From Candidatus Undinarchaeales archaeon (lineage in GTDB: Archaea; SpSt-1190; JASMDC01), in the NCBI GenBank assembly GCA_030753015.1, contig JASMDC010000011.1, positions 1-64,000 of the forward strand: a DNA stretch of 64,000 bases. Reading direction: 5' to 3'. The notes beneath the pieces are model-generated. The model searched no databases. It worked only from the letters and a program-made list of their open reading frames with translations, and had not been told where the DNA came from. The position numbers were made by a program, and so were the translations under genes. Of this stretch, positions 7,101 to 19,373 are shown piece by piece. Every line of letters starts with the position of its first letter. Position 1 is the stretch's first letter.

Positions 7101-7594
7101 GACATCCCTTGCTTACGGTTCTCGATGGCGGTGGCCATGGCGCCGTTGCCCCGGTTGTACCCGAACAGGATGAGGGTGAGCACCTCGTCCTCGTTCGCGC
7201 CCATGTTCATCGCCTTGTCCAGGCTCCCCTTGAGGTGCTTCATACCAAGGTCGATACCGAACCGGACGTCGGTCTTGCACCTGCAGTAGTCGGGCGACCC
7301 CTTGTCCACCCGGCATGGGTGGTCGACCTGCATGATACCGCCGCAGTTGACCTGGGCCCTGCAGGACGATTCCCTGATGACCTGGGCCATGAGCATCACC
7401 GGATCGATGATCTTGTCGACGCCGTATTTGCCCATGAACTCGAGGAAGAGATCCTTGTACGGAGCGCAGGACCGCAAGCTGCTAGAGCCGAGCCGGGAGA
7501 GGTCGGCGCCCTCGCAGGCGGCGATCCCGGTGGCCGTCACGAGTAGGAGCGGGATGAGCAGGAGCACGAAACGGCGGACCGCGACCACGGTCAT
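1133..7594 (-). CDS. Giant secreted multi-domain peptidoglycan hydrolase (lytic transglycosylase/lysozyme-like + M23 peptidase + TSP3-like Ca repeats + NlpC/P60 + Cys-rich and Ig-like regions)
   Basis: Signal peptide; SLT motifs RESS/GIMQ/GYNRG; M23 HHGLD..YGH..HLH; DxDGDG repeats; NlpC/P60 DCS..HTG..LH; ATGA overlap with upstream gene. Confidence 0.9.
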   Translation of the reverse strand: MTVVAVRRFVLLLIPLLLVTATGIAACEGADLSRLGSSSLRSCAPYKDLFLEFMGKYGVDKIIDPVMLMAQVIRESSCRAQVNCGGIMQVDHPCRVDKGSPDYCRCKTDVRFGIDLGMKHLKGSLDKAMNMGANEDEVLTLILFGYNRGNGAMATAIENRKQGMSLADAMMKSCIKYYGPGTKWNDVDYYCKKTGTVYPEKIYSTFRKACKELGGTPADVPALSPAAGTVNCPDYLTNSQWIWPLKGRITSRFGPRPKPCADCSSYHHGLDISQTQGTPIVAAGAGKVKYAGWATGYGNVVYIDHGKNVQTRYGHSSKLLVSTGQDISQGQKIALVGSTGYSTGPHLHFEIRVNDKAIDPLPELESGSTGSVDPRNDIDGDGICNNFDDDMDGDSIPNAQDQDIDGDGTPNTLDGDNDNDGLPDNQEVEDCRYLYDCDGDSIPDSTDADPRVTNLDLDGDCIPNAQDDDWDNDGAPNGEDDTNANPCAGCQVMAGTKGGGDKTRVEMCVTGPCDTTKCMDHLEASMPSGAQSAPAMATTATGAILPGTLDLETIPYLGTKCEPDSTQRASVTVDPIDAGAHASVSLDTSLLTCPDRTYDNINEYRADLIETLGKMKQFYMALKEHLVVLEDALRKQEKQCEKAITQFTGEYTSCDELNLDPEGVASPEFTPAVCGEMAVKACPAELAACLKDARPADALKKAKTCSLCIVLPCCPGTGCAAGNDPADTTKCGKDDIDPVEGECRYTDKDKCEEGCPAGLRTVPSSGCTLTPKEEGDGGDLGVTSCEVSGQSLTVSCCHEKDGDVCKDGKRFTDTDACSAVVVSKEKREHALVFPRTLEECYQKAFDVKDLCTVEGSAVLGDGRTHSPGHVADAIGRAVRFLEHYDKVYPSLEAKMRELAQAEEENLRQGAATTRKDTIDILLGIEQSSNELATNGETTLAQFQKLAIDIVGLAGSNELKNDVSGTHNQEAGDLNSYQIKATEGWKGAELCMFDGTVDTSVFDDECVLTGPATLQEITAVANDLSCDGCAKENKQVGRCLQEPKPVTVRESNLDVWPDAPLMSLVSMGKLDPQAIFLDSQKCFDYRGPPSSSPGTGPGGASEQCSLVCGSMGAPQGHCHPELGVCVCLVEGLQQITDATCDERVDSALAAKLAACCEKMVGETAGVETFKGATRTDSDKSDAVCGTAREYLGWNYEMSTKVPYCSGGKCYIDCSSLTQQVFKKHGVNIPRTASAQYEWCRKQGKLVDEPVRGDAIYFKNTYKQGISHTGIWLGDGKYLHAAGRKYGVITSTLTADRKAKHWAGACRLIGDVSTTGTSSKVTFGLCKDGSGDLCCTGRGLEAEKRITAETCDVTCEDMCSVKHTAGSEDAMRCVAKCAGNTCLGRPDKTECEGGLCCKGQCVPDASSCDGETCEEEDRACSGGWCCDLLCVPDATACTTDTCAEAADGTECEGGLCCEHRCVPGALACSIECAGKVQSDACEGVEGLCCDTTCIPGAQSCGSPDEQCDIHEGIPCAAGAEEGMCCDKNCVPGASACSGSPACDDKADGQECDGGVCCRGVCVANADGCSDEDRCQTICFDRFPDDVNAARLCTVRCNEINVTCESNCLENLEGMDCVSSCGDGLDNDGDGDIDEDMVNTIDDDGDGRLDEDGSGHDIPQSAIHCMAQCVPAEATGPSARIISCIKACRALAPSLRLSVSFADDVHAVLPGEIVDITARVENSGVFPFEGSIDIEVDKLFTCTCPETGGCSCMKTAVFVSDENFQLEARDNLTLTSDPLEADRQGNIRFLRPKASVSTYAGDKVVSEIGELATMLDVGAVRDGSFILLPENTTAREAYPGDTVAGVVVVEGEGQLTVTRTITHDGNMLDGTKSESTATTGSEGTTELHTRTYTIPPSMDGATFGLHAEVINSTDHVLFRDVLHAEAGDNPCTGSTVTHDCLAHDNPKIYADARLKVRAFDLTLTYAFFIDREDRPVSRSGEPLDVRAAIELQNWHPRPFSGEVELSVVTEGGEVLHAANHSVELAPYITADILVPQESASLVSDPVNVPADTTTLIRIVARTDDGTVWLDMIVPSDLFPESRLVVMKQTEFGDIDIDASIVYGECKLKVTAKRCLDTCELHVDKDVCTIEPKECGCIPTVERIVPQAELPGSEVTG

Positions 7595-10500
7595 ACCCTC
7601 CCACGCGGTGCATATATAGGTTTCCTCGCGATCGCCGTCGCTGCCAGGAGGCCGAGCAGGGCAAGATGGGCGACGGTAAGGCCCGGGGCCGTGCGCATCT
7701 CCACGCCCATGGACTGGGCAGGCGAGCGGACCACCACGTCGATAGCACCGGAGTCGCGCAGTTCGCCGTCCTTCTCCTCTACATCGATGACGAGCGTCCG
7801 CTTCCCCGAGATGAGGCCGGTCACCTGGAGCAGGAGCTGGCGGTACTCCCAGGGTTGGAGCACGAAGGTCGGGCGGAAGATCATCACGTTGTCAGCGAGC
7901 ACACCGCTGGCCCGCACGGTAAATGTCTTTGCGACACCCGATGGATTTGCTATGTGGACGGCGATGACGTACGAATCGCCAAGGATTACCTCGAACTGGG
8001 TTTCCGATATGAGCAGAAGGTTGAGCTTGTTGGAGCACACCATGTTGATCGGATCCGCGAACTCCCCCTTGGCGCAGCACACGCCCATGGTGCACAGGTT
8101 GGAGGCACAGATCTCGTTGCACTGGCAGGCCTGGCCCTTATCGAGCCGTGAGCTCTCGGCCACGCATGCACCATTGCCGTTGCACACCTCGTACGCAGGA
8201 TCGCCCGAGTCGCACACGGTCCCGCACGCCGTGCACTGGGTGTTGCAGACGCCCAGGGGATGGATGTTATCGCAGACCTCTCCCTCCTTGCAGTCCGCGA
8301 CGGTCCGGCACAGGCCTTTCTTGGCCACGAACTTCAGCTCGAGGACATCGTCCACTTCGAGGAGCGGCACCTCCCACGCCACCAGGGAGACGGCGTCGAG
8401 GACCTTCACCTTACGGTCGAAGTGGAGCTCCTCGATGCTGTGGGTCACGCCCTTCTTCACGCGGTAGGGCACCACAACGTCCTCCATGGCCTGGCCCTTG
8501 GCGTTGTAGAGCCTGATGGTGAACAGCGACCAGTAGTACTCGATCCCATCGGGAACGGAGATCTCGACGAGGGCGGGGACGGTGACGGCGATGAGGTTGT
8601 CCTCGGTGAGGTTGAGGGTGAGGATGTCCGTGCGCCGTTTGAGCGCCAGTGCGGTCTTGGATACGTCCTCGCGCTCCACCTCCAGCCGGTACGACTCGCG
8701 CTCGGTGATGGTGATGGTCACCCATCCGGCAGCGACCTGGGCCACCTTGGACCGCACCTCGTCCATGAACGCGGGGTCCACGGCGACGCCCGACACGCTC
8801 GTCGCGAGGATCGCGTCCCGAAGCCGACCCTCCTGCTCGGCGAGCCGATCTTGCGCCACCTTCGTCTCGTCCACTTCGAACACGGTGTTGACCATGCCCA
8901 CAAGGACACGGAGCGCGGTCACCGTGGTCATGAGATCATCCGACGGGAGGTCGGTAAGCTGTGCCTTGGTGAAGAACTGCTCGATGGTCCTGTTGTTGAT
9001 GATGGCACGGAGGTTGTCCAGGGAGCGGGCGCGGTCCTGGATGCGTTCGAGCATGAAGAGCGCGGTGTCCATGCCCCCGGCGGTGCGGGCGTACTCCTGG
9101 GTTGTGGTGAGCCGGTAGAGGGCAACGACACCGTAATCGAGCGCCCGCGAGAGGTCCTCCTCCATGTTGAAGTCGAGCTCGGTGGCAGTATCCTTGATCG
9201 ATGCGTTGAGGGCGATGGTGGCGTTGAGGGCCTGGGCGAGCTTCGGGAACCGGTCCTGGAGCTGGGCGGCAAGGACCGCGGTCTCGCCCGCCGCGTTGGC
9301 CACCATCTCGTTGATAGCGGGCCCGAGCATCCTGGTGAGCTCCTTCTTCTTGGTCAGCGGGAGGATGTCGGCGTATCTGCGGGCCGCGAACCGGTTGTTC
9401 ACGTCCTCGAACCGATACCCGAGACCCAGCGGGACGTTGCACATGAACACGACCTTGGCAAGGTCGTCGTCTGCGAACTCGCACAGCAGGGCCGCCCGGC
9501 CCGCCAGCGCCATCAGGGTCTCCCGGCAGGCGGTGAGCCCGCCGAAGAAGCACTCCTGGAATGTGATCATGTCGGTGTTGAGGAGGCCGTCGCAGATCTG
9601 GGTGTTGTCGATGCAGAGGTCGAAGTGCTCACGGCACTCCTCGTCGTCCAGGCAACGCTGACAGGTCTGTAGGTGGCGTGCGCATTTGAGACAGCGGTTG
9701 TTGTTGGACGCGTCCGTGTACAAGCAACCCTCCAGACCGCCGATGAGCTCATCGGTGCAGTTCTCGGGATGGAACAGGCAGAAGTGGCACTGTGTCTGCC
9801 GCACCTGGCACTTGTCGATGTGGTCGAAGCACCCGTCCGTGCGGTCACAGACATCGCACATGGTCGTCGGGTACGAGAGGGTGACCGACGAGTAGAAGCA
9901 CTGGTCCGTCGTTGCCGAGATCCTTACGCGTTCGCCCGTGGCGTTGAGCCGGATATGGGTGGCATAGCCCAGTTCCTGGGGTAGGTCCTGGTACCGGCCC
10001 TTGAGATAGGTGAGGCCCTGGTAGGTGTCGAACAGGTCGAACATCGGGTAGGTGCAATGGCATCCCAGAAGCGAGCAGGTGAAAATGTTGATGTCCAGGG
10101 ACGCGCCCGGGAACACCTCGTAGGTCTTGCTCTCGGCGCAGCTACCCTGGTTGAACGGATCACGGAGGGGATCGGTGGCGCAGGCCTCTTCCGCGTAGAC
10201 AGGGGTCTCCCGGGCGAACACCTCCAGGCCGATGGCCGGATGGTAGTCGCCATGGTAGCAGTAGCCGGCGGTGCCGCACCACTTCTCGTCCACGTCGTCG
10301 CCGCAGCACGTCCCCTCGCGCCATTCCTCCTCCACGCACTGCTCGCAGTAGTGGGCGTCGTCGTCCGGATCGGCGACAGGATGCCACACACCCTCGAGGC
10401 AGTAGCCCCGGTCACCGCACCAGGACTCGCCCGGGTCGTCGCCGCAGCACTCCTCGTCCGAGAGGTCGTAGAGCGATTCCCAGATGTTGCCCGCACAAGC

Positions 10501-13500
10501 GGTGCAGAAGTGCTCGTCGTCGTCGTAATCGGCCACGGGGAACCAGGCCGCCTGGAGGCAGTAGCCGTCCTCCTCGAGCCCGCACCAGCTCTCCCCCGCG
10601 TCGTCACCGCAGCACGTGTCGATGTCGTCGTCGACGCTCCTGAACCACCAGCCGTTGGGAGTCATGCACCGGCACGCGGGCTGGTCGAAGTCGGGCTCAT
10701 CGGTCCGCTGGTTCTCGTTGCAGTACCAATTCTGTGAGCCGTAGGACGGGGACGAGCACCAGGTGTCGGTCTCCGTGTCGCCACCGCAGCAGCGGTTCTC
10801 CCCGGACGGGTTGTCGGTCGTGAAGAGGTTCTGTCCGGCCTTGCAGTCGCAGTACTCCTTCTTGTCGTCAGCGTTGTCCTCGCGCACGGCGTTGTCGCAG
10901 TACCACGCACCATCGCCGGGATTAGGGCTCTCGCACCAGCTCTCTCCGGCCTCCTCGTTCACGCCACCGCAGCACTTGAACGGTCCCCCGTTCTTGTCCG
11001 AGTAGAGGTCTGGGCCCGCCTCGCAGTCGCAGTAGTCGCGCTTCAGGTCGGCATCGTCCTTGCGGACGTTGGTGTCGCAGTACCATTCGCCGCCACCGGG
11101 TACGGGATTCGAGCACCATGTGTCCACCTCGCCGACATCACCACCGCAGCACCTGTCGTCGCCTGCGTTGTCGACCGTGTAGAGGTCCTCGCCGGCCTCG
11201 CACTCGCAGTACTCGAGCTTGCTATCGGCATCGTCCTTGCGCACAGCATTGTCGCAGTACCATGCACCGTCACCGATCCTCGTGCTCTCGCACCATGTCT
11301 CGCCGGGTTCCTCGTTGACGCCACCGCAGCACTTATCGGCGCCGCTGTTCTTGGTGGAGTAGAGCTCCTCCCCGGCCTCGCAGTCGCAGTAAGCCTGCTT
11401 CACGTCGGCATCGTCCACGCGCACGGCGCCGTCACAGTACCACTGGCCGTCGCTGGCGGTGGGGCTCTCGCACCACGTCTCGGCCGCCTCCTCGTTGACG
11501 CCGCCGCAGCACCGGTTCGAGCCACTGTTCTTGGTGGTGTAGAGGCTGGGACCGGCCTCGCAGTCGCAGTAGGCCAGCTTGCTATCGGCATCGTCCACAC
11601 GCACAGCGCCGTCGCAGTACCAGGCGCCGTCGCCGACGGTAGGGCTCTCGCACCACGTCTCTCCAGGTTCCTCGTTGGTGCCCCCGCAGCACATGCTCGC
11701 ACCGCTGTTCTTGGTGGTGTAGAGGCGTAGCCCCGCCTCGCAGTCGCAGTAGGCCTGCTTCGTATCGGCGTCGTCCACGCGTACGGCGCCGTCACAGTAC
11801 CAGTCACCGTCACCGGGCGTTGGGCTCTCGCACCAGACCTCGCCGGGCTCCTCGTTGACGCCACCGCAGCACTTGTTGGCGCCGCTGTTCTTTGCCGTGA
11901 AGAGACTGGTGCCTGCCTCGCAGTCGCAGTACTCCTGCTTGTAGTCGGCGTCGTCCATGCGCACAGCACCGTCGCAGTACCAGGTGCCGGCACCGCTAGT
12001 GGGATTCTCGCACCACGTCTCCCCGGCCTCCTCGTTGGTGCCGCCGCAGCACTTCTTCGAGCCCGCGTTGTTCGTGGTGTAGAGGTTGGCGCCCGCCTCG
12101 CAGTCGCAGTACTCCTGCTTGACGTCGGCGTCGTCCTTGCGTGTAGCACCGTCGCAGTACCAGTCACCGCCACCGGCGGTAGGGCTCTCGCACCACGTCT
12201 CGGCCGCCTCCTCGTTGACACCGCCGCAGCATTTGTTGGCGCCCGCGTTCTTTGCCGTGAAGAGGTTGGTACCTGCCTCGCAGTCACAGTACGCCTGCTT
12301 GTAGTCGGCGTCGTCCTGGCGCACGGCGCCGTCGCAGTACCAGGTGCCGCTGCCCGCCGTCGGGCTCTCGCACCAGGTCTCTCCGGCCTCCTCTGCGTTC
12401 CCGCCGCAGCATCGTTTATTGCCGCTGTTCTTTGTGGTGTAGAGGTTGGACCCGGCCTCGCAGTCGCAGGCTGGCTGGGTCGTGTCGGCGTCGGGCTCGC
12501 GGGCGCCGTCGTCGCAGTACCAGGTACCGGCACCGGAGGTGGCGCTCTGACAGAAATCCTCCCCCGCGTCATCGCAGCACGTGGACCGGGCCCAGTGGTC
12601 GGCTCCCAGGATGCAGGTACAGGCCTTCTTCGAATCGTCACCGTCCACCGTCTTGGACCCGGTCAGGCAGTACCAAGACGAGGTGGCTGCGCAGAAGTCG
12701 TCGGTGGCTCCGCCATCGTCACCGCAGCATATAGTCTCCTGGGACGACCATAGCTTGGAACCGCAGGTCTGGCAGCCGTAGGACGACTGGTCGTAGTCGG
12801 TGATGTAGACACCGGAATCGCAGTACTTGTTGGTCGGCCCGCAGTAGGTGTCGGTCGACCCCCCGTCATCGCCGCAGCACTTGTTGCTGAGCCATACCTT
12901 GCTGCCACAGGTGACGCACCCGTACTCGGACTCGTCGGGATCGTTGTGGAGGGTACCCGACTCGCAGTACTTCCCGGACGCATCGCAGTACGTGTCGGTG
13001 GCCCCACCATCGTCACCGCAGCACTTGCTTTTTAGCCAGCTCTTGGACGCACAGGTCTCGCACCCGTACTTCTTCTTGTCCGGATCGGTGTACTTGACAC
13101 CGTCGAGGCAGAAGTTCGTGGAGCCTGCGCAGTAGTCGTCGGACGCACCGTCGTCCCCGCAGCACTTGTTGTTGAGCCATACCTTGCTCGCGCATGTCTG
13201 ACACCCGTACTTCTTCTTGTCCGGATCGGTGTACCAGCTGCCGTCGAAGCAGTAGCTCGTTCCCGAGCAGTAGTCGTCATTGGAGCCGTCGTCGCCGCAG
13301 CATTTGTTGGCCTTCCATGAGCCGCCCTTGCACACACAGCTGTTGGCGTCGTTGTCGCCGTTGCTGTTGGCGCACTTCGAGCACCAGTTCGCGTTCCCGA
13401 CGGCACAGTTGTAGCCCCCACCGCCGCATTTCAGGCCGGTGCACTTCTTCTCGCCGTCGCACTTCTTGCAGGCACCGCACTCTGAGTTCGAGCAGCAGTT

Positions 13501-13689
13501 GCCCCCGGCGTACCAGTTACCGCCGCAGCAGATGCCACCGGTCTTTGCCTGACAAGCATCGCTGACACAGTCCTGGCACGCGTTGCAGACCGGATCGCAA
13601 GCGGCGATGCCGAGATCGGGCAGGACCACCAGGGCGAGGAGGGCAGTAAGGACAAGGCAGATGCCCCACTTCCCGTCCGGTATTTCCAC
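7591..13689 (-). CDS. Giant Cys-rich repeat surface protein with C-terminal membrane anchor
   Basis: Signal peptide; about 20 six-Cys repeats; helical region; Ig-like segments; C-terminal APG + TM helix + RK tail. Confidence 0.85.
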   Translation of the reverse strand: MEIPDGKWGICLVLTALLALVVLPDLGIAACDPVCNACQDCVSDACQAKTGGICCGGNWYAGGNCCSNSECGACKKCDGEKKCTGLKCGGGGYNCAVGNANWCSKCANSNGDNDANSCVCKGGSWKANKCCGDDGSNDDYCSGTSYCFDGSWYTDPDKKKYGCQTCASKVWLNNKCCGDDGASDDYCAGSTNFCLDGVKYTDPDKKKYGCETCASKSWLKSKCCGDDGGATDTYCDASGKYCESGTLHNDPDESEYGCVTCGSKVWLSNKCCGDDGGSTDTYCGPTNKYCDSGVYITDYDQSSYGCQTCGSKLWSSQETICCGDDGGATDDFCAATSSWYCLTGSKTVDGDDSKKACTCILGADHWARSTCCDDAGEDFCQSATSGAGTWYCDDGAREPDADTTQPACDCEAGSNLYTTKNSGNKRCCGGNAEEAGETWCESPTAGSGTWYCDGAVRQDDADYKQAYCDCEAGTNLFTAKNAGANKCCGGVNEEAAETWCESPTAGGGDWYCDGATRKDDADVKQEYCDCEAGANLYTTNNAGSKKCCGGTNEEAGETWCENPTSGAGTWYCDGAVRMDDADYKQEYCDCEAGTSLFTAKNSGANKCCGGVNEEPGEVWCESPTPGDGDWYCDGAVRVDDADTKQAYCDCEAGLRLYTTKNSGASMCCGGTNEEPGETWCESPTVGDGAWYCDGAVRVDDADSKLAYCDCEAGPSLYTTKNSGSNRCCGGVNEEAAETWCESPTASDGQWYCDGAVRVDDADVKQAYCDCEAGEELYSTKNSGADKCCGGVNEEPGETWCESTRIGDGAWYCDNAVRKDDADSKLEYCECEAGEDLYTVDNAGDDRCCGGDVGEVDTWCSNPVPGGGEWYCDTNVRKDDADLKRDYCDCEAGPDLYSDKNGGPFKCCGGVNEEAGESWCESPNPGDGAWYCDNAVREDNADDKKEYCDCKAGQNLFTTDNPSGENRCCGGDTETDTWCSSPSYGSQNWYCNENQRTDEPDFDQPACRCMTPNGWWFRSVDDDIDTCCGDDAGESWCGLEEDGYCLQAAWFPVADYDDDEHFCTACAGNIWESLYDLSDEECCGDDPGESWCGDRGYCLEGVWHPVADPDDDAHYCEQCVEEEWREGTCCGDDVDEKWCGTAGYCYHGDYHPAIGLEVFARETPVYAEEACATDPLRDPFNQGSCAESKTYEVFPGASLDINIFTCSLLGCHCTYPMFDLFDTYQGLTYLKGRYQDLPQELGYATHIRLNATGERVRISATTDQCFYSSVTLSYPTTMCDVCDRTDGCFDHIDKCQVRQTQCHFCLFHPENCTDELIGGLEGCLYTDASNNNRCLKCARHLQTCQRCLDDEECREHFDLCIDNTQICDGLLNTDMITFQECFFGGLTACRETLMALAGRAALLCEFADDDLAKVVFMCNVPLGLGYRFEDVNNRFAARRYADILPLTKKKELTRMLGPAINEMVANAAGETAVLAAQLQDRFPKLAQALNATIALNASIKDTATELDFNMEEDLSRALDYGVVALYRLTTTQEYARTAGGMDTALFMLERIQDRARSLDNLRAIINNRTIEQFFTKAQLTDLPSDDLMTTVTALRVLVGMVNTVFEVDETKVAQDRLAEQEGRLRDAILATSVSGVAVDPAFMDEVRSKVAQVAAGWVTITITERESYRLEVEREDVSKTALALKRRTDILTLNLTEDNLIAVTVPALVEISVPDGIEYYWSLFTIRLYNAKGQAMEDVVVPYRVKKGVTHSIEELHFDRKVKVLDAVSLVAWEVPLLEVDDVLELKFVAKKGLCRTVADCKEGEVCDNIHPLGVCNTQCTACGTVCDSGDPAYEVCNGNGACVAESSRLDKGQACQCNEICASNLCTMGVCCAKGEFADPINMVCSNKLNLLLISETQFEVILGDSYVIAVHIANPSGVAKTFTVRASGVLADNVMIFRPTFVLQPWEYRQLLLQVTGLISGKRTLVIDVEEKDGELRDSGAIDVVVRSPAQSMGVEMRTAPGLTVAHLALLGLLAATAIARKPIYAPRGRV
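10240..13330 (-). repeat. Intragenic tandem repeat array (about 11 units of 177-180 bp flanked by shorter approx 140-165 bp units)
   Basis: gtcgcagtacca recurs at 180-bp spacing about 10.7-12.5 kb; protein unit CCGG.NEE..E.WC.SP..G.G.WYCD.A.R.DDAD.K..YCDCEAG. Confidence 0.9.
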
Positions 13690-13754: not shown

Positions 13755-14219
13755 TTATAGGTTGGTTTTTAAGGGGAACCGGAGCACGCGCCGCACCGGG
13801 ACGAAGCCGCAGAGCTCGTAGAACGCGGCGGCGCGTTCGTTGCCCTCGTTCACCGAGACCTCCAGAACAGAGCAGTCCTCGCGCTGACCATCGCTCTTGA
13901 CGTGGTCCATCAGAATGCGGCCCACACCCTTGCTGCGAACATCCCGGTCAACGGCGATGAAGGAGAGGCGGCATACGTCCTGGCCGCTCCATCGGTCGCG
14001 GGTGAACCGGAACCATGCAGCGCCGACGACGCGTTCACCATCGCAGGCCACCACCACCCGCTCGCCCCGAGCAAGGCTCTCGCGGAGCTCGCGCTCTCGC
14101 TCGGCGGCGTTCCAGACCCTCTCGGGGAAGAACTCCTCGGTGAATGTGAGATCCAGGGCTACAACAGCGGCGAGGTCGGCGGGAGAGCTGGGATTCAGGG
14201 GGCGGATGGTGACGGGCAT
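13755..14219 (-). CDS. GNAT family N-acetyltransferase
   Basis: Motif A IAVDRDVRSKGVGRILM and motif B NERAAAFYELCGF. Confidence 0.9.
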   Translation of the reverse strand: MPVTIRPLNPSSPADLAAVVALDLTFTEEFFPERVWNAAERERELRESLARGERVVVACDGERVVGAAWFRFTRDRWSGQDVCRLSFIAVDRDVRSKGVGRILMDHVKSDGQREDCSVLEVSVNEGNERAAAFYELCGFVPVRRVLRFPLKTNL

Positions 14220-14234
14220 GTCCTCTCTCGACTC

Positions 14235-17200
14235 CTATCCCGTGATGATCATGTCCACGGGCGGTGCCTCGGTCTTTGCGTCCGGACGGTAGTAGTCGTA
14301 CACGATGGATCGCGGGGCTGTGGCCTTCACCGGGTAGAGCGCTACGAGCCTGTACGTGAACTTCAGCCCCTCCTTGTCCAGGTTCTGGATGTAGAGGATC
14401 GCCTGCCGCGGCTTCACGGAGTACCTAGAGATGACACCCCGCTGTTTGAGATTCTCGAGGTCCTCTGCCACGACGGCGAACCCGGGCGGGATGCCCATAT
14501 CGGCGACGATGAAGGGCGCCACGCCGGCACCGTTGTTCCATACCTTGACGTCGGCGGTCACCATGTCATTGGTGGCAAGCTCGGTCCTGTCGTACTTGAG
14601 CGAGAACCCGACCATGTCCTGGGCCGAGCGCTCGGCGAGCACCGTGGGGTGCGACCATGGCAGATAGTACGAGCCCACGACCTGGTAGTGGAGCAGCCCT
14701 CCACCCTCGGTGACGAGCTCTACGGTGTGCGCTCCGGGTGCCAGTTCGTCGCCCAGGGAGACGAGGTGCATGATGTCGACGTTCCCCTTCGTGACACGGA
14801 GGGTGCGGACCTCGGCGTCGTCGACCTTAACGGTGATGGTGGCGTCAGCGCTCTCCTTGGCCTTGAGGGACGAGCCCATCAGCGCCTTGAGGCTGAGCAC
14901 CGTAGAGTAGGTGGAGCCCCACTTGCCGAAGCTGTCCTTCTCCGAGGTTATGAACGCCAGCGCCTTGGTGACCAGCATGGGGGAGTGTTGTGCCTCGATG
15001 AGGGCGAGCGCGATCATGGCGCTGTCCTCGAGGCTCTTGGCCTTTCCGCCCGAGCCCATGAACCCGCGTGGCGCGTCCATGTCCTTGGGGGCCCACCACG
15101 CCATGTCGTCCTTGACGGTGGCCCTGTCGACGGCCTGGACGAGGAGCTGGTTCGTGAGCGAGTCGGAGACGTCGTACTCCACCATGGCGCTGAGGCAAAG
15201 GGCGATGGTGTACATGTCGGCCGTGGCCGGATCGATGTTCTTGCGGAGGTAGCTCAGCGCACGGGAGAACGCCCTATGGTCGCGGTCGAGGCCCGACTCG
15301 AGCAGGCTCCATACAAGGTAGCACGTGGTGCCCGTCATCGACTTCTGCCGCTTGCTCATTTCGAACATGGCTCCCTGCGGCTCCCACGAGCCGTCGGGCT
15401 TCTGCTCGGAGAGCAGGTACCTCTGGGTCCGCTCGATGACGGCCGGGTCCACCTCGTACACCTTCGCCATGTCGCTGAACTGCTGTAGTCCCATGGCGGT
15501 GAGCAGGAGCTTGGCCGGCGGATTACCGAACCAGTCGAACCCGCCGGGCGTCGATGTCTCGAAGCTCAGCAAGCGCTGGTAGCCCACACCGATGAAGTTC
15601 TCGGCCTTCAGCTCCAGCTCCGGATTCGCCTGCTTGGTCTCGCGCAGGTACTGGAGCACCATGATGTTGGGATAGGTCGTGGACGAGGTCTGCTCGAAGC
15701 ACCCGGTAGGCATCTTGAGCATCCCGTCGAGCCCCTCGACGATCTGGCTCATCACGCCGGGATGGATCTTGAGGATGGCCTTGTAGCTGTCGGGGATCGC
15801 GTCTGCCGGGACGGTGAGCGGCACCGTCACGGTCCCCTCCTTCAGACGTTCGGACGTGCTCGTGCGGAACTCACGGCCGTTGGGGAGGATCTCCACCTCA
15901 CGGCGCACAGCGTCGCTCGAACCGGTTCCGTAGGCGAACACGGTGAGGTTGTGGCGGCCGATGGTGTCCGCGCGCAGAGACAGGTGAGCCGACGTGATAT
16001 CGTTGGCACCGAGCGTGACGATGATCTCGCGCTTCGAAGGATCGCTCATCGGAAGCAGCGTGTCCTGGAGCGTGAACCACGGATCATCGGGATCCTCCTC
16101 CACCACCAGCCGCACATCCTGCTCGGCGTCGAGGTAGTTGTACACCGTCAGCGGCACGGTCACTGTATCGTTCTGTGTGAGGAACACGGGGAAGTCGATG
16201 TCCACGAAGAAGTCCTGGAACACGAGGATGCCCGCCTCGGTCGAGCCCAGTTCGCCGCTCATGGCGTTCGCCATGGCGCCCACCTTCCAGGTGGTGATGG
16301 AATCTGCCAGAGGGACGTAGATATCGGCCTTCCCCTGCTCGTCGGTGATGACCTGGGGATTGACGTAGAGCGTCTCCGGGAAGAACGCACGGACGCGCGG
16401 GCCCTCCTCCTCGCTGCCCCCGCCACCTTCCTCGTCCAAAAACTCCACTTCCATATCAGCCTTACCCATCGAGAACGACGTCATGATCTGCTTCTCCGGC
16501 CTGCTCTTGATGTCGTTGAGGATGCGCTCGCGCATGGTGTCGGACACCTCGTCGTTCATCCCCATGTTGACGCTCCGCATGAGGGGTGTCGCCAACGCGA
16601 AGAAGCCGATGATGAGGAGGGGCAGTGCGATGCCGAACGCGGAGATCAGCATGGGCAGTGCGAGCTTTGTCCGCTGGCGCATGTGCCGGGCAGCGCCCCC
16701 GCAGAACGGGAGCATCAGCAAGCTCGAGGCAAGGAGGAAGACCGCGCCGACGCTTCCTTCATCGAGCGCACCGCTCCGAGAGTATGAGAAGATGAAGGGC
16801 ATGGCGATGATAACCATCATGAAGACGAGAAGGGCGAAGAGATGGTTCTTGATGCCGGCGAGCACGGTGTCCGTCACCGAGGCGTTGTACAGGATGAAGA
16901 GCGATCTGAGCATGAACGCTCCAAGGACCGCGACGCAGGCGACGATCACGATAGGGCTGCGGACCATGGTCCCGGCCGCCATGACACCGAGCAAGGCGAT
17001 TGGGAAGAGGATACCGGCGATGAAGCGGGCATAGTACCCTGCCGCACGGACGTGCTGGAGCCGCCAGAGGGTGACGCTCAGGAGGAGGAAGGTGAGGAGA
17101 AACACGCCTTTCGGTGCGTCCTGTTCACTATAGCTGAGGTCGTCGATGCCATCGTCCACCCACTCGAGCATGTAGATGAACGCGACCAGAGCGCCGAACA

Positions 17201-19373
17201 CCAGTCCGACTAGGACAATGCCCTTGACGAGGTCCTTGATGGCGGCCCACCACCCCTCCTCTGTACCTCGTACGAAGGCAGCGACGCTCGCGAGGCCCGC
17301 CAGAAGGCATACAAGAGAGAACAGCAGGGCCTGGTTCCGGAAGAACGAGCGCTTCGCCTCCTCCACTTGGGCCTCCTTCTCCTCACGTGTGGATACCTGG
17401 ATGCCGAACGGGCCCAACTTTGCCTCAGGCGCGTTGCGCGCCAGGAACACCTGCTCGGCGATGTGAATGTCCTCCTCCACCTTGACGGTGTCAGGTGCCG
17501 GTGCCGGCCGCTCGGGTGCCATGGGGTTGAACCCGTACACCGTGAACCGTGGTCGTGCAAGCTCGCGTCCCAGGTAGAACGCCATGCGCTCGAACCCGGC
17601 CTTGGCCTCCTCGAGAGCGAACACCGACTCGTCCACGACGGTGAGCCCGACGGCCGCGGGGACGCCTTCACCCTTCCGTTCGGTAGCGATGCTGAGCTGG
17701 GCTAGTTCTCCCGGTTTGTAGCTCTCCTGGTCCGTCCCGATGGACACCGCGAGCTGGTCTGCGGGGAGCACCACGATGCGTCGCGTGGCCCGCTCGACGG
17801 CTGTGCTGCGAGTGGTGTGATAGGCGTGCACGATGAGCTGGCCCGCCATCGAGGCGTCGATGTCGAACACCGCGTCTCCCTGTCCGCTCTTGAGGGTGAG
17901 GGAGCGGGCGTCCACGGTCTGTCCGTCCTTGACCATGTCGACGTAGGCGGCAGGAGCGGCCCCCGAGTGGAGCACGGTGACCGTCGCCGTATCGCCCACC
18001 CGGTACACACCCCTGTCCGTCCGGACGAGGATGGTGCTCCGCTCGAGCTCGTAGTCGCGCCGTTCGCGTCCCTCGCGATAGGACCACTTCTTACTGCCCG
18101 TGCGAGCTTCCGCATCCTTCGCCTTGAGGATGAGCTGCGGATTGTTGTTCTGTGGCCTGAACTCGAACGAACCGAGGCCGAGGCTCCCGGTCTTCACGGT
18201 CGTCGAGAAGTCGACGTCACCGCTCACTTCCACCGTCGCGGGGACCGGTACACCGTCGGGTGTCGAGGTGGCCACGTACATCACGTTGAGGAAGTTGAAG
18301 TTCAAATGCCCGCTCTCGGGGATGAGGTCGATTACGATATCGGATGTGGACACGGGGAACTGGCGCACGATCTGCTCGACATGGTCGCCCCGGTCGGTCA
18401 CCGAGACGTTGAGAAAGAGGAGAGCACCGCCCTTCTCCAGCTCGGAGCCGTGGAACGCCGCGGGCAGGGTGTAGGTGAACTTGACCTGGCCCATCTCGTC
18501 CGTGGTGCCCTTCCAAGAGTGGAGCTCGCGCTCACCGACGTCCACGGTATAGAACACGACCTCGGCCTCGCTCTTGGAAACGGGCTTGCCGAAGAAGTAC
18601 CGGGCGGTGATGGTCCCCTCGAGCTTGTCGTTCGGCTTGTAGAAGGAACGGTCGGTCTGCAGGGCGACCCTGAACTTGGGAAGGACGTACCGCTCGACCC
18701 TGATGCTCTTCTGGCTCTGGACGCCGTTGACGATGACGGTCACGCGGTACCTGCCGAGGATGAGCTCGGGGGCCAGCGCGATGCTCACTGACGCGATCCC
18801 GTACTCGCTCGTGGTGATGACCTTGCGGAACACCTTGTTGCCTTTGGGATCCTCCAGCTCGAAGGTGGCGTTCGTGGCGGCAAGGGGCTTGGCGTCGATG
18901 GAGGAGAGAGCAAGAGCGCGTACGTGCACCAGTTGCCCGGGCTGGTAGAGGGGCTTGTCCGTGGACACTAGCACCTTGGCCTTGCGCTTCACGGTCAGGA
19001 TCGCCTCGTGCGTATCGGTCCCCGACTCGATGATGAGGGTGTAGGTCCCCTCCTCCTCGGGCGCGACGAACTTGGGCGCAGAGCTCCCTTCCGTGTTCGT
19101 TTTTCCCTCGAACATGAGCTTCTTCTCGCCGGGCCGGTCCTTGGGTGTGATGTAGACCTTCACGGCCTCGTCGGGACGTGGCTTGTCGGTACCGACGTGG
19201 CGGGCGACCACCCTGATCGCCTGGGGCGCACCAGGCTGCACGACCGCCTGGCCGAGGACGATGGTGTCGTACTGGTCGATGCGCTCCTCCATGGTGGAGG
19301 CGCGGTACGCCATGAACTGGTTCGCACCCAAGAAGAGGATAACGAGGAATACAGCAAGAATATACCTTCCCAT
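14235..19373 (-). CDS. Alpha-2-macroglobulin / thioester-containing protein with internal multi-pass TM insertion
   Basis: TDKPLYQPG, EYVLP-like RYVLPKF, VVDESV, RAFFPETL, DSITTW, thioester GCFEQ (15690-15704), QKPDGSW, C-terminal YDYY. Confidence 0.92.
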   Translation of the reverse strand: MGRYILAVFLVILFLGANQFMAYRASTMEERIDQYDTIVLGQAVVQPGAPQAIRVVARHVGTDKPRPDEAVKVYITPKDRPGEKKLMFEGKTNTEGSSAPKFVAPEEEGTYTLIIESGTDTHEAILTVKRKAKVLVSTDKPLYQPGQLVHVRALALSSIDAKPLAATNATFELEDPKGNKVFRKVITTSEYGIASVSIALAPELILGRYRVTVIVNGVQSQKSIRVERYVLPKFRVALQTDRSFYKPNDKLEGTITARYFFGKPVSKSEAEVVFYTVDVGERELHSWKGTTDEMGQVKFTYTLPAAFHGSELEKGGALLFLNVSVTDRGDHVEQIVRQFPVSTSDIVIDLIPESGHLNFNFLNVMYVATSTPDGVPVPATVEVSGDVDFSTTVKTGSLGLGSFEFRPQNNNPQLILKAKDAEARTGSKKWSYREGRERRDYELERSTILVRTDRGVYRVGDTATVTVLHSGAAPAAYVDMVKDGQTVDARSLTLKSGQGDAVFDIDASMAGQLIVHAYHTTRSTAVERATRRIVVLPADQLAVSIGTDQESYKPGELAQLSIATERKGEGVPAAVGLTVVDESVFALEEAKAGFERMAFYLGRELARPRFTVYGFNPMAPERPAPAPDTVKVEEDIHIAEQVFLARNAPEAKLGPFGIQVSTREEKEAQVEEAKRSFFRNQALLFSLVCLLAGLASVAAFVRGTEEGWWAAIKDLVKGIVLVGLVFGALVAFIYMLEWVDDGIDDLSYSEQDAPKGVFLLTFLLLSVTLWRLQHVRAAGYYARFIAGILFPIALLGVMAAGTMVRSPIVIVACVAVLGAFMLRSLFILYNASVTDTVLAGIKNHLFALLVFMMVIIAMPFIFSYSRSGALDEGSVGAVFLLASSLLMLPFCGGAARHMRQRTKLALPMLISAFGIALPLLIIGFFALATPLMRSVNMGMNDEVSDTMRERILNDIKSRPEKQIMTSFSMGKADMEVEFLDEEGGGGSEEEGPRVRAFFPETLYVNPQVITDEQGKADIYVPLADSITTWKVGAMANAMSGELGSTEAGILVFQDFFVDIDFPVFLTQNDTVTVPLTVYNYLDAEQDVRLVVEEDPDDPWFTLQDTLLPMSDPSKREIIVTLGANDITSAHLSLRADTIGRHNLTVFAYGTGSSDAVRREVEILPNGREFRTSTSERLKEGTVTVPLTVPADAIPDSYKAILKIHPGVMSQIVEGLDGMLKMPTGCFEQTSSTTYPNIMVLQYLRETKQANPELELKAENFIGVGYQRLLSFETSTPGGFDWFGNPPAKLLLTAMGLQQFSDMAKVYEVDPAVIERTQRYLLSEQKPDGSWEPQGAMFEMSKRQKSMTGTTCYLVWSLLESGLDRDHRAFSRALSYLRKNIDPATADMYTIALCLSAMVEYDVSDSLTNQLLVQAVDRATVKDDMAWWAPKDMDAPRGFMGSGGKAKSLEDSAMIALALIEAQHSPMLVTKALAFITSEKDSFGKWGSTYSTVLSLKALMGSSLKAKESADATITVKVDDAEVRTLRVTKGNVDIMHLVSLGDELAPGAHTVELVTEGGGLLHYQVVGSYYLPWSHPTVLAERSAQDMVGFSLKYDRTELATNDMVTADVKVWNNGAGVAPFIVADMGIPPGFAVVAEDLENLKQRGVISRYSVKPRQAILYIQNLDKEGLKFTYRLVALYPVKATAPRSIVYDYYRPDAKTEAPPVDMIITG

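What the first reader, a model, noticed from the sequence alone, without database searches (positions are those of the whole stretch)
16580..17345. About 8 transmembrane helices replace the bait region of the alpha-2-macroglobulin
Seen: between the VVDESV motif and the RAFFPETL motif lie about 255 aa of consecutive hydrophobic helices (ALLFSLVCLL.., GIVLVGLVF.., VFLLTFLLL.., FIAGILFPI.., IVIVACVAVL.., LFALLVFMMV.., VFLLASSLLML.., LPMLISAFGIALPLL). Established: this interval is normally the soluble, protease-sensitive bait region whose cleavage exposes the thioester. Inference: the protein is tethered through its middle, and activation could be coupled to membrane events, intramembrane proteolysis or inward signalling. 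An even helix count would keep both halves outside.
Basis: partly seen in the sequence, partly recalled or inferred. Interest (0 to 1): 0.78.

Follow-up and report, generated by a model that had tools for sequence, protein, structure and literature searches.

The report
Membrane-spanning bundle inside a thioester macroglobulin
An archaeal alpha-2-macroglobulin-type protease trap carries eight membrane-spanning helices at the spot where relatives have a soluble bait loop, and dozens of related proteins share this unreported layout.

Summary
The gene at 14235-19373 (-) encodes a 1712-aa alpha-2-macroglobulin (A2M)/TEP-type protein with MG2, MG3, A2M_BRD, A2M, TED (GCFEQ) and receptor-binding domains. 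Eight hydrophobic helices (residues 677-935) lie between VDESV and FFPETL, the site of the bait region in A2M/CD109 and of the anaphylatoxin domain in C3.

It is not an artefact. Of 132 scorable relatives, 75 carry a multi-helix insert there: 64 with 6 helices, 5 with 8, and 5 with a threshold-sensitive 7. Most named ones are Anaerolineae; others are Verrucomicrobiota and DPANN-labelled archaea. Charge bias puts both A2M halves outside the cell.

"Replace" is too strong. A roughly 43-aa disordered acidic linker, hypervariable across the family, remains just before FFPETL and is the likely bait.

The bundle has no Pfam match, no PDB fold match and no stand-alone homologue found, and it is poorly conserved (24% identity). 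I read it as a family-specific multi-pass anchor for a surface protease trap. A signalling role stays open, because some bacterial relatives are fused to anti-sigma domains next to ECF sigma genes.

Side finding: many Anaerolineae relatives have TGA (probably selenocysteine) at the thioester cysteine.

Verdict: new variant of a known kind.

The parts
14235..19373 (-). Whole gene: 1712-aa thioester alpha-2-macroglobulin/TEP-type protein (P0001)
   Evidence: ORF and translation. Pfam hits: MG2 134-225, MG3 228-300, A2M_BRD 450-587, A2M 1005-1089, TED_complement 1208-1498, A2M_recep 1622-1702.
19305..19361 (-). N-terminal hydrophobic segment (residues 5-23): signal anchor or signal peptide
   Evidence: Kyte-Doolittle 2.08. 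Only four residues precede it. Relatives have cytoplasmic domains before the equivalent helix. Whether it is cleaved was not tested.
17613..18026 (-). A2M_BRD Pfam domain (residues 450-587), ending in VVDESVFAL
   Evidence: Strands modelled at pLDDT about 90.
17346..17612 (-). Soluble pre-bundle segment (residues 588-676): conserved helices, then two short low-confidence stretches and an amphipathic helix running into TM1
   Evidence: Family identity is 67.6% for 588-615 and 29.7% for 616-676.
16569..17345 (-). Eight-helix transmembrane bundle (residues 677-935): the finding
   Evidence: Hydropathy. AlphaFold2 helices. Homologous 6- or 8-helix inserts in relatives. Positive-inside bias. No Pfam, no PDB fold, no stand-alone homologue found.
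16503..16568 (-). Juxtamembrane helix after TM8 (residues 936-957, NMGMNDEVSDTMRERILNDIKS)
   Evidence: Modelled as a continuation of the TM8 helix. It is 60-64% identical to a segment behind the N-terminal helix of a 277-aa ORF on contig C84 of the same genome.
16401..16502 (-). Disordered acidic linker (residues 958-991), the candidate bait, immediately upstream of PRVRAFFPETL
   Evidence: pLDDT below 50 over model residues 518-560, which are protein residues 957-999. Sequence. It is the least conserved and most length-variable region of the family (20.6% identity, 34-108 aa). It is positionally equivalent to the segment just before human A2M residue 729. The bait role is inferred.
16107..16361 (-). 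Pfam A2M domain (residues 1005-1089) after the FFPETL strand
   Evidence: Alignments to A2ML1, A2M and CD109.
15690..15704 (-). Thioester motif GCFEQ (residues 1224-1228)
   Evidence: Direct translation. It lies within TED_complement. CFEQ is shared by all relatives with a TED.
14880..15752 (-). Thioester domain (TED, residues 1208-1498)
   Evidence: Pfam PF07678, E 8.7e-39.
14268..14510 (-). C-terminal receptor-binding-type domain (residues 1622-1702)
   Evidence: Pfam PF07677, E 3.9e-12.

Best explanation
The gene encodes a cell-surface, thioester-bearing A2M/TEP-type protease trap. A family-specific multi-pass helical bundle (eight helices here, six in most relatives) has been inserted between the two halves of the MG6 domain. 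That is the site of the bait region in A2M and CD109 and of the anaphylatoxin domain in C3/C4/C5.

The even helix count puts the chain back on the outer face of the membrane, so both the MG1-6 ring and the MG7-CUB-TED-RBD half sit outside the cell. The bundle acts mainly as a stable membrane anchor. It places the protein, and the disordered hypervariable linker that follows it (the probable true bait), directly at the membrane surface.

When a foreign protease cuts that linker (or one of the short loops before the bundle), the usual A2M conformational change would expose the Cys-Gln thioester. The protease would then be captured covalently on the cell surface.

Shown: the domain architecture, the eight helices, the mapping to the bait site, family conservation, the topology bias, and the variability pattern.

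Inferred: the anchoring role, the identity of the bait, thioester formation and protease trapping.
For: Architecture and intact GCFEQ motif.

Eight helices by hydropathy and in two AlphaFold2 models.

The insert lies between Pfam A2M_BRD (ends 587) and the FFPETL strand that aligns to human A2M residue 729 and CD109 residue 701.

Six of six distant insert-bearing relatives scanned have the same A2M_BRD...A2M arrangement.

Of 132 scorable relatives, 64 have 6 helices, 5 have 8 and 5 have an ambiguous 7. An independent extra hairpin in P0041 also keeps the count even.

In 66 of 69 relatives with 6 or 8 helices, the odd-numbered loops hold more Lys/Arg (572 against 339 in total) and fewer Asp/Glu (171 against 366) than the flanks plus even-numbered loops.

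Relatives with an N-terminal zf-HC2 or anti-sigma-like cytoplasmic domain before the first helix fix the MG1-6 half outside.

The bundle is weakly conserved (23.6% identity against 53-68% in flanking domains), and no polar residue inside the helices is conserved in 60% or more of rows. That fits a structural role better than a catalytic or transport role.

The post-bundle linker is the most variable segment (20.6% identity, 34-108 aa) and is modelled as disordered.

A paralogue in the same genome (contig C11) has a soluble interval and GCGEQT. The insert is therefore a lineage-specific addition to an otherwise ordinary scaffold.

The named insert-bearing records are mostly Chloroflexota and archaea. 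Both lack an outer membrane to retain a soluble trap; that point is recalled knowledge, not tested here.
Against: An N-terminal hydrophobic helix already exists in the window protein and in most relatives. A second anchor of 6-8 helices therefore looks excessive for tethering alone.

Verrucomicrobiota, which have an outer membrane, also carry the insert, so the link to cells without an outer membrane is imperfect.

A few loop positions are conserved and might bind something: a cytoplasmic (K/R)(K/R)D motif at alignment positions 833-835, and a Gly at position 896. The window protein itself has VTD at 833-835.

No experiment or dedicated topology predictor was available. Thioester formation and protease trapping were not tested. 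Which linker is cut is unknown.

The confidence of the AlphaFold2 bundle is only moderate (block means roughly 60-95).
Confidence: 0.58

Rival explanations
1. The bundle is a transducer, not just an anchor. Cleavage of the extracellular bait, or the resulting A2M rearrangement, is passed through the helices to the cytoplasmic loops or to the N-terminal helix. The protein would then work as a protease-sensing surface receptor. In bacterial relatives it would release an ECF sigma factor.
For: Seven insert-bearing relatives carry an N-terminal zf-HC2 anti-sigma domain: P0011 and P0085, P0087, P0088, P0096, P0101, P0102 (precomputed Pfam).

In 2 of 2 Verrucomicrobiota loci an ECF sigma gene ends 4 nt before the A2M gene, and the A2M has a roughly 115-aa cytoplasmic N-terminal domain.

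No zf-HC2 was listed among the relatives that lack the insert.

There is a conserved basic/acidic cytoplasmic loop motif.

A multi-pass bundle is more than tethering needs.
Against: The window protein has only four cytoplasmic residues at its N-terminus. No sigma or other regulator gene was found among the 10 neighbouring ORFs scanned.

Most relatives also lack a cytoplasmic domain.

Anti-sigma signalling in the fused relatives could run through the N-terminal helix alone, without the bundle.

The cytoplasmic loops are short and the bundle is poorly conserved.
Confidence: 0.2
2. The protein is a covalent adhesin rather than a protease inhibitor. The thioester would attach the cell to a partner or prey surface, and the multi-pass bundle would be a load-bearing anchor. 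This would suit episymbiotic or predatory small archaea.
For: The closest 8-helix relatives come from MAGs labelled as DPANN archaea (Undinarchaeota, Woesearchaeota).

The genome's class-level relatives have genomes of 0.6-1.2 Mb.

Downstream genes encode giant surface-type proteins, including one with M23 and NlpC/P60 cell-wall hydrolase domains.

That thioester domains serve as covalent adhesins in Gram-positive bacteria is recalled, not tested here.
Against: The full A2M architecture is kept, including a bait-like linker and the receptor-binding-type domain. This points to the protease-triggered mechanism.

Most family members are in free-living-type Anaerolineae.

There are no adhesion data.
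Confidence: 0.1
3. The helices themselves are the bait. An intramembrane protease (rhomboid or site-2 type) or membrane damage would disturb the bundle and trigger the thioester without any cut in a soluble loop.
For: The bundle sits exactly where the trigger region of A2M-family proteins lies. It evolves fast, as baits do.
Against: A separate disordered, hypervariable soluble linker is present at the canonical bait position.

No intramembrane protease gene is conserved next to the gene. Among neighbours in 17 insert-bearing loci, nothing recurs beyond close relatives.

No helix-breaking motif is conserved apart from one Pro in TM1.
Confidence: 0.07
4. Artefact: a mis-assembly or a mistaken fusion of an A2M gene with a membrane-protein gene.
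For: None found. The genome is a 117-contig assembly with 5% estimated contamination.
Against: It is a single uninterrupted frame. The same architecture appears in 75 independent protein clusters and 17 of 80 genome loci from several phyla, including a complete chromosome. The sister genome G001 has an 84%-identical copy.
Confidence: 0.01

Closest known systems
Human alpha-2-macroglobulin / A2ML1 (PDB 6tav, 7von, 7q1y)
   Same: The domain order is the same: MG2, MG3, A2M_BRD, A2M, TED with a CxEQ thioester, and a receptor-binding domain. The C-terminal 700 aa align at E 1e-60 to 1e-67. The trigger region sits between the VD(E/Q)SV strand and the FPETW/L strand.
   Different: Human A2M has a short soluble bait in that interval (about 39 aa, precursor residues 690-728; recalled). 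Here the interval is 415 aa and holds eight transmembrane helices. The motif is CFEQ, not CGEQ. The protein is membrane-embedded rather than secreted, and nothing is known about its oligomeric state.
CD109 (GPI-anchored TEP; PDB 8s3o)
   Same: It is a membrane-tethered member of the same superfamily and the best profile match in the PDB (E 2e-123). It also has a bait region at the same site.
   Different: CD109 is tethered by a C-terminal GPI lipid (search listings). The window protein is tethered by helices inside the bait interval.
Bacterial A2M: E. coli ECAM/YfhM and Pseudomonas MagD
   Same: These are prokaryotic A2M-type proteins held at the cytoplasmic membrane and proposed as protease traps guarding the envelope. 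The abstracts of PMC4498604 and PMC5764988 were seen in search listings.
   Different: They are anchored by an N-terminal lipid or a single anchor and have soluble bait domains. The lipoprotein anchor and the pairing with PBP1c are recalled. The window protein has no Cys in its N-terminal segment, no PBP1c-like gene among the neighbours scanned, and matches the eukaryote-type TED_complement and A2M_recep models.
Complement C3/C4/C5
   Same: These also have a whole domain (the anaphylatoxin domain) inserted at the same point between the halves of MG6 (recalled). The family profile aligns to C3 from residue 756 onward.
   Different: Their insert is a small soluble helical domain released by cleavage. 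Here it is a membrane bundle. No ANA or C345C match was found.
Archaeal A2M homologues described by Makarova et al. 2021 (PMC8416519; passages read)
   Same: They are archaeal proteins with MG/Ig domains, a TED and an intact CxEQ motif. They are usually predicted to have a signal peptide and sit near other surface proteins. They are proposed to act in defence or inter-microbial conflict.
   Different: The passages I read mention no transmembrane insert in the bait region. The supplements, which list the domain organisations, could not be seen.

Membership tests
A2M/TEP thioester-protein superfamily | Array of macroglobulin (MG) domains, including A2M_BRD and the A2M domain | tested here: met
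   Pfam MG2, MG3, A2M_BRD and A2M are all above their gathering scores.
A2M/TEP thioester-protein superfamily | Thioester domain with a CxEQ motif | tested here: met
   TED_complement at E 8.7e-39. GCFEQ at residues 1224-1228.
A2M/TEP thioester-protein superfamily | C-terminal receptor-binding (MG8) domain | tested here: met
   A2M_recep at E 3.9e-12, residues 1622-1702.
A2M/TEP thioester-protein superfamily | Soluble, protease-sensitive bait region between the MG6 halves | tested here: inconclusive
   The interval holds eight transmembrane helices. A 43-aa disordered, hypervariable linker remains at the canonical position. Its sensitivity to proteases was not tested.
A2M/TEP thioester-protein superfamily | A formed thioester bond (methylamine-reactive) and protease-induced conformational trapping | not testable with these tools
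   This needs purified protein.
Bacterial ECAM/YfhM-type A2M | N-terminal lipoprotein anchor (lipobox Cys) | tested here: not met
   There is no Cys in residues 1-40. That this feature defines the family is recalled.
Bacterial ECAM/YfhM-type A2M | Adjacent PBP1c (pbpC) gene | tested here: not met
   Ten neighbouring ORFs were scanned. None is a penicillin-binding protein. No neighbour is conserved across 17 insert-bearing loci. That this feature defines the family is recalled.
Complement C3/C4/C5 | Anaphylatoxin domain at the MG6 insertion site and a C345C domain | tested here: not met
   No such Pfam matches at E <= 0.01.
zf-HC2 anti-sigma factors | Cytoplasmic N-terminal zinc-finger/anti-sigma domain with a partner ECF sigma gene | tested here: not met
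   The window protein has four residues before its first helix and no sigma gene among its neighbours. The feature is met in relatives P0011, L009 and L019.
Known membrane-protein families (for the bundle itself) | Sequence or fold similarity of residues 660-960 to a described family | tested here: not met
   Pfam: 0 families at E <= 1. Foldseek against the PDB: 0 matches at E <= 0.001, best E 0.049, TM-score <= 0.25. Atlas: no usable hit. No protein of 165-527 aa matched.

The most novel reading that the evidence does not exclude
The insert-bearing A2Ms are a prokaryotic surface immune sensor. A complement/A2M-like ectodomain is wired through a dedicated helical bundle, so that attack by a foreign protease both traps the protease covalently and sends a signal into the cell. 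In the anti-sigma-fused bacterial relatives this would switch on an ECF regulon. Within the same family, many members have replaced the thioester cysteine with selenocysteine, which would give a more reactive 'selenoester' warhead.
Probability: 0.2. Interest if true: 0.88.

Novelty: new variant of a known kind. Interest (0 to 1): 0.68.

Why it matters
A2M, complement and TEP proteins are textbook soluble (or lipid-tethered) innate-immunity molecules whose trigger is a soluble loop or small domain at one fixed site. This family has a multi-pass membrane bundle at that same site. That shows the site tolerates a third kind of insert, alongside the bait region and the anaphylatoxin domain.

It also suggests how cells without an outer membrane could keep a protease trap on their surface. 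With the anti-sigma fusions, it offers a testable route from extracellular proteolysis to gene regulation.

The architecture recurs in 75 protein clusters, yet the databases name these proteins only 'MG2 domain-containing' or 'alpha-2-macroglobulin family'. Seven full-text searches found no description of it.

The probable selenocysteine forms would, if confirmed, be the first selenoester version of this warhead that I know of. They also mean many database entries for this family are truncated at the TGA.

Tried and rejected
Origin of the bundle. All of the following came back empty:
- Pfam on residues 660-960 at E <= 1.
- NCBIfam on the whole protein, which gave only weak squalene-cyclase-like noise.
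- The ESM Atlas.
- Foldseek against the PDB.
- A search for stand-alone proteins of 165-527 aa.
I therefore dropped the idea that the insert is a recruited transporter, rhomboid or other known membrane enzyme.

Conserved operon. All-against-all BLAST of neighbouring ORFs in 17 insert-bearing loci found no neighbour shared beyond close relatives. I do not claim a partner gene.

Direct sequence mapping of residues 440-699 onto PDB chains found nothing. The mapping rests on Pfam and the profile search.

Docking of the N-terminal helix to the bundle. One complex-prediction job (chain 1 = residues 655-965, chain 2 = residues 1-40, both from alignment A4) gave no verdict, with score 0.00 and no controls run. 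It counts neither for nor against.

CAGE-complex preprint (10.1101/2025.09.22.677704; passages read). It mentions A2M only as a fold comparison and is not relevant.

Vampirococcus paper (PMC8080830; one passage read). It notes large membrane proteins with A2M domains as possible defence and says nothing about a transmembrane bait.

SECIS-like hairpin. Its folding energy is no better than shuffled sequence (z -0.31). The hairpin claim rests on position and invariance only.

First FastTree run. It placed the window's clade among insert-less proteins on a long branch, with a long-branch warning. I did not rely on this. The IQ-TREE subset (52 of the 123 rows, chosen by me to span the clades) groups it with insert-bearing proteins (7 rows, SH-aLRT 95). 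The AU test does not reject one clade for all 29 insert-bearing rows (p 0.86).

Not attempted: RNA or read evidence (look-up of sequencing runs, read laying).

Paper supplements were closed. The supplementary tables of PMC8416519 might list domain organisations that bear on novelty.
Full report
WHAT IS THERE

The window is about 62% G+C. On the minus strand at 14235-19373 it carries one uninterrupted ORF of 1712 aa, P0001.

Pfam finds the full eukaryote-style A2M/TEP architecture:
- MG2, residues 134-225
- MG3, 228-300
- A2M_BRD, 450-587
- A2M, 1005-1089
- TED_complement, 1208-1498
- A2M_recep, 1622-1702

The thioester motif reads GCFEQ at residues 1224-1228. The best solved relatives are A2ML1, human A2M and CD109, at E 1e-59 to 1e-67 for the single sequence and 2e-123 for the family profile.

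THE OBSERVATION

There are 415 residues between VVDESV (579-584) and RAFFPETL (995-1002). A 19-residue Kyte-Doolittle scan at 1.6 or above gives eight separate segments: 683-701, 718-736, 757-775, 784-802, 808-826, 845-863, 875-893 and 909-927. It also gives an N-terminal segment at 5-23.

I built two AlphaFold2 models with a 67-row family alignment. One covers residues 440-1100 (mean pLDDT 73.9). The other covers residues 660-960 (mean pLDDT 79.1, pTM 0.72). Each shows eight long helices at those places.

MAPPING

Pfam A2M_BRD ends at residue 587, and the Pfam A2M domain starts at 1005. P0001 residue 992 aligns with residue 729 of human A2M in 6tav numbering. In the family profile, the VDESV column aligns with VDKSV of CD109 (to residue 618) and the column before FFPET aligns with CD109 residue 701.

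The insert therefore lies in the interval that holds the bait region in A2M and CD109. From recalled structural knowledge, the same interval holds the anaphylatoxin domain in C3/C4/C5.

A paralogue on contig C11 of the same genome has GCGEQT and a soluble interval of roughly 130 aa, read by eye from the translation. This shows what the scaffold looks like without the insert.

IT IS A FAMILY TRAIT

An exhaustive phmmer search used residues 577-1003 against 1.84 billion representative proteins. It gave 32 hits at E <= 0.001. These include P0006 (32% identity over the whole insert, E 6e-18) and several others with 6-8 hydrophobic segments. Six of six such proteins scanned have A2M_BRD before the insert and A2M after it.

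A profile of the insert region (A1, 11 rows) then found 144 longer proteins at E <= 1e-5, of which 120 were listed.

Over all 150 proteins collected, 132 contain both flanking motifs. Helix counts in the interval were 0 (55), 1 (1), 2 (1), 4 (1), 6 (64), 7 (5) and 8 (5). The intervals are 283-415 aa with helices and 105-406 aa without. All five '7' counts become 6 or 8 at other thresholds.

In genome records, 17 of the 80 loci returned have six or more helices. They carry these labels:
- Anaerolineae or Chloroflexota: 12
- Verrucomicrobiota: 2
- Woesearchaeota: 2, one of them a complete 1.54-Mb chromosome
- Undinarchaeota: 1; this is L007, 84% identical to the window protein

A partial protein 85% identical to the window protein is labelled Methanopyri archaeon. 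The window also encodes an Hjc-type resolvase. The organism is therefore archaeal.

The sister genome G001 has the gene. The 39 other relatives searched gave no match to the insert itself; one, G023, matched only the conserved residues 381-448 that follow it.

TOPOLOGY

Among the 69 proteins with 6 or 8 helices, 66 have more Lys/Arg in loops 1, 3, 5 and 7 than in the flanks plus the even-numbered loops. The totals are 572 against 339. Asp/Glu go the other way, 171 against 366. By the positive-inside rule the odd-numbered loops are cytoplasmic and both A2M halves are outside.

There is independent support from relatives. P0011 and six others carry an N-terminal zf-HC2 anti-sigma domain before their first helix. 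The two Verrucomicrobiota proteins have a roughly 115-aa N-terminal domain and an ECF sigma gene ending 4 nt upstream. This fixes the N-terminus inside and MG1-6 outside.

The two extra helices of the 8-helix forms align as a hairpin inserted between helices 2 and 3 of the 6-helix forms. P0041 has gained a different hairpin. Helices are thus added in pairs, as expected if both ends must stay outside.

WHAT THE BUNDLE IS

It matches no Pfam family and no PDB fold (best Foldseek E 0.049, TM-score <= 0.25). The Atlas gave nothing usable, and no stand-alone protein of 165-527 aa matched.

Mean pairwise identity across 64 family rows, by region:

| Region | Identity | Length |
|---|---|---|
| Flanking domains | 53-68% | - |
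| Pre-bundle linker | 29.7% | - |
| Bundle | 23.6% | - |
| Post-bundle segment | 20.6% | 34-108 aa |

Inside the helices, only hydrophobic positions and one Pro are conserved in 60% or more of rows. The conserved charged positions are all in loops. This is the pattern of a structural membrane module, not of an enzyme or transporter.

WHERE THE BAIT PROBABLY IS

After helix 8 the model continues as a helix to about residue 957. It then loses confidence (pLDDT below 50) until residue 999. That stretch reads ...EKQIMTSFSMGKADMEVEFLDEEGGGGSEEEG and ends just before PRVRAFFPETL.

It is disordered, acidic, hypervariable in the family, and positionally equivalent to the residues just before human A2M residue 729. 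I take it as the likely bait. That is an inference. Two shorter low-confidence loops before the bundle (610-626 and 644-660) are alternatives.

The helices therefore do not replace the bait. They are inserted upstream of it.

MECHANISM PROPOSED

The protein is a surface-anchored protease trap. The N-terminal helix and the bundle hold the MG ring and the TED half on the outer face of the membrane. A foreign protease cuts the linker, the A2M-type rearrangement exposes the thioester, and the protease is bound covalently at the cell surface.

Architecture, topology bias and the variability pattern are shown. Anchoring, bait identity, thioester formation and trapping are inferred. I give this reading 0.58.

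The main rival (0.2) is that the bundle also transmits a signal. The anti-sigma/ECF-sigma relatives make this plausible for bacteria. The window protein, however, has no cytoplasmic domain, and no regulator gene was found next to it.

The other rivals are a covalent-adhesin role, a role as the bait for intramembrane proteolysis or membrane damage, and an artefact. They are given in the Rival explanations section.

EVOLUTION

A FastTree of 123 proteins was built on the regions flanking the insert, with the insert itself left out. It needs only 2 changes of the trait, against a shuffled mean of 40. It puts the window's long branch among insert-less proteins, with a long-branch warning.

An IQ-TREE of 52 rows, which I chose to span the clades, places the window clade with P0006, P0011, P0034 and P0139 (7 rows, SH-aLRT 95). 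The tree with all 29 insert-bearing rows held together has a higher likelihood than the free tree, with p-AU 0.86. A single origin followed by transfer between Chloroflexota, Verrucomicrobiota and archaea is compatible with the data. It is not proven.

CONTEXT

Directly downstream, on the same strand, are three genes:
- a GNAT acetyltransferase (13755-14219)
- a 2032-aa cysteine-rich repeat protein with terminal hydrophobic segments and no Pfam match (7591-13689)
- a 2153-aa protein with M23 and NlpC/P60 peptidase domains (1133-7594)

The order A2M, small ORF, giant ORF recurs in L007. No neighbour is conserved across the wider family.

LITERATURE

Seven full-text searches found no description of transmembrane helices in an A2M bait region, of A2M-anti-sigma fusions, or of a selenocysteine A2M.

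Makarova et al. 2021 (PMC8416519; passages read) describe archaeal A2M homologues with a TED, CxEQ and signal peptides, located near surface-protein genes. The passages I read do not mention such an insert. The supplements could not be read.

Database names for family members are generic.

SIDE FINDING

Twenty-six collected proteins of 1044-1246 aa lack the thioester motif. Twenty-three of them end in [LM]PxG, two more end in VPYG, and one (P0107) ends differently. Twenty-five therefore end exactly one residue before the thioester Cys.

In 9 of 9 such genome loci the next codon is TGA. The frame then continues ...FEQ(T/S)TS(V/A)T(Y/F)PN... for 470-480 aa through the rest of the TED and the receptor-binding domain.

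A 6-7-bp hairpin with a GG(U/C) loop starts 13 nt after the TGA codon and is invariant at synonymous sites. One stem position changes T-A to G-U. Its folding energy alone is not significant (z -0.31).

Five of the nine genomes were searched. All five have SelB above the curated cut-off, against 2 of 14 control genomes. All five have a tRNA-Sec hit above the gathering score: four at 70-74 bits and one at 48.4 bits, against a cut-off of 47.

These are probably selenocysteine-containing A2Ms whose database entries are truncated at the TGA. The window protein itself has Cys.

VERDICT

This is a new architectural variant of the A2M/TEP family, widespread and apparently undescribed. Interest 0.68.

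Noticed in passing
L018:9708-9760 and the equivalent sites in L033, L036, L047, L055, L058, L069, L077, L083: In 9 of 9 'short-form' insert-bearing A2M loci of Chloroflexota, the thioester cysteine codon is TGA (G-TGA-F-E-Q). The frame continues for 470-480 aa, and a conserved hairpin follows 13 nt downstream. SelB and tRNA-Sec are present in 5 of 5 genomes checked. This is a probable selenocysteine ('selenoester') A2M. Of 26 short protein entries, 25 end exactly at this position, so they are probably truncated gene calls.
   Followed up: partly
L009:822-6662 and L019:5415-11273; proteins P0011, P0085, P0087, P0088, P0096, P0101, P0102: Some bacterial insert-bearing A2Ms are anti-sigma fusions. 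They have an N-terminal zf-HC2 or a roughly 115-aa cytoplasmic domain. In both Verrucomicrobiota loci, an ECF sigma gene ends 4 nt upstream.
   Followed up: partly
window 16503-16568 (-) and L006:1384-2217 (+) (= G000 contig C84); also G001 contig C5: The juxtamembrane helix after TM8 (MGMNDEVSDTMRERILNDIKS) is 60-64% identical to a segment right behind the N-terminal hydrophobic helix of an unrelated 277-aa ORF with no Pfam match. The match appears in both sister genomes and at only this one other place in the genome. The reason is unknown; it could be a shared membrane-proximal module or bait mimicry.
   Followed up: partly
window 7591-13689 (-): A 2032-aa protein made of many cysteine-rich repeats (CCGDDG...YC...). 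It has an N-terminal hydrophobic segment and a C-terminal one (2003-2021) preceded by PGL, which is reminiscent of PGF-CTERM sorting signals (recalled, not tested). It has no Pfam match.
   Followed up: no
window 1133-7594 (-): A 2153-aa protein with Peptidase_M23 (266-360) and NlpC/P60 (1200-1303) domains. These are bacterial cell-wall hydrolase types, found here in an archaeal genome, in the same gene string as the A2M.
   Followed up: no
whole genome G000 and its relatives: G000 (3.85 Mb) and its one congener G001 (3.6 Mb) are classed with genomes of only 0.6-1.2 Mb (15 same-class genomes). Close homologues carry DPANN-type labels. This is an unusually large genome for that class. No 16S rRNA was found in the assembly.
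   Followed up: no
G000:C11:45406-49422 (-) and G000:C95:74479-78303 (-): There are two further A2M-type genes in the same genome. One is a 1558-aa frame with a soluble bait interval and the canonical GCGEQT motif. The other lies in a 2505-aa frame.
   Followed up: partly
L013, L015, L025, L027, L028, L037-L039 and other Acidobacteriota loci: Acidobacteriota CFEQ-type A2Ms have equally long intervals (about 355-390 aa) at the bait site but no hydrophobic helices. This suggests a different large soluble insert at the same position.
   Followed up: no
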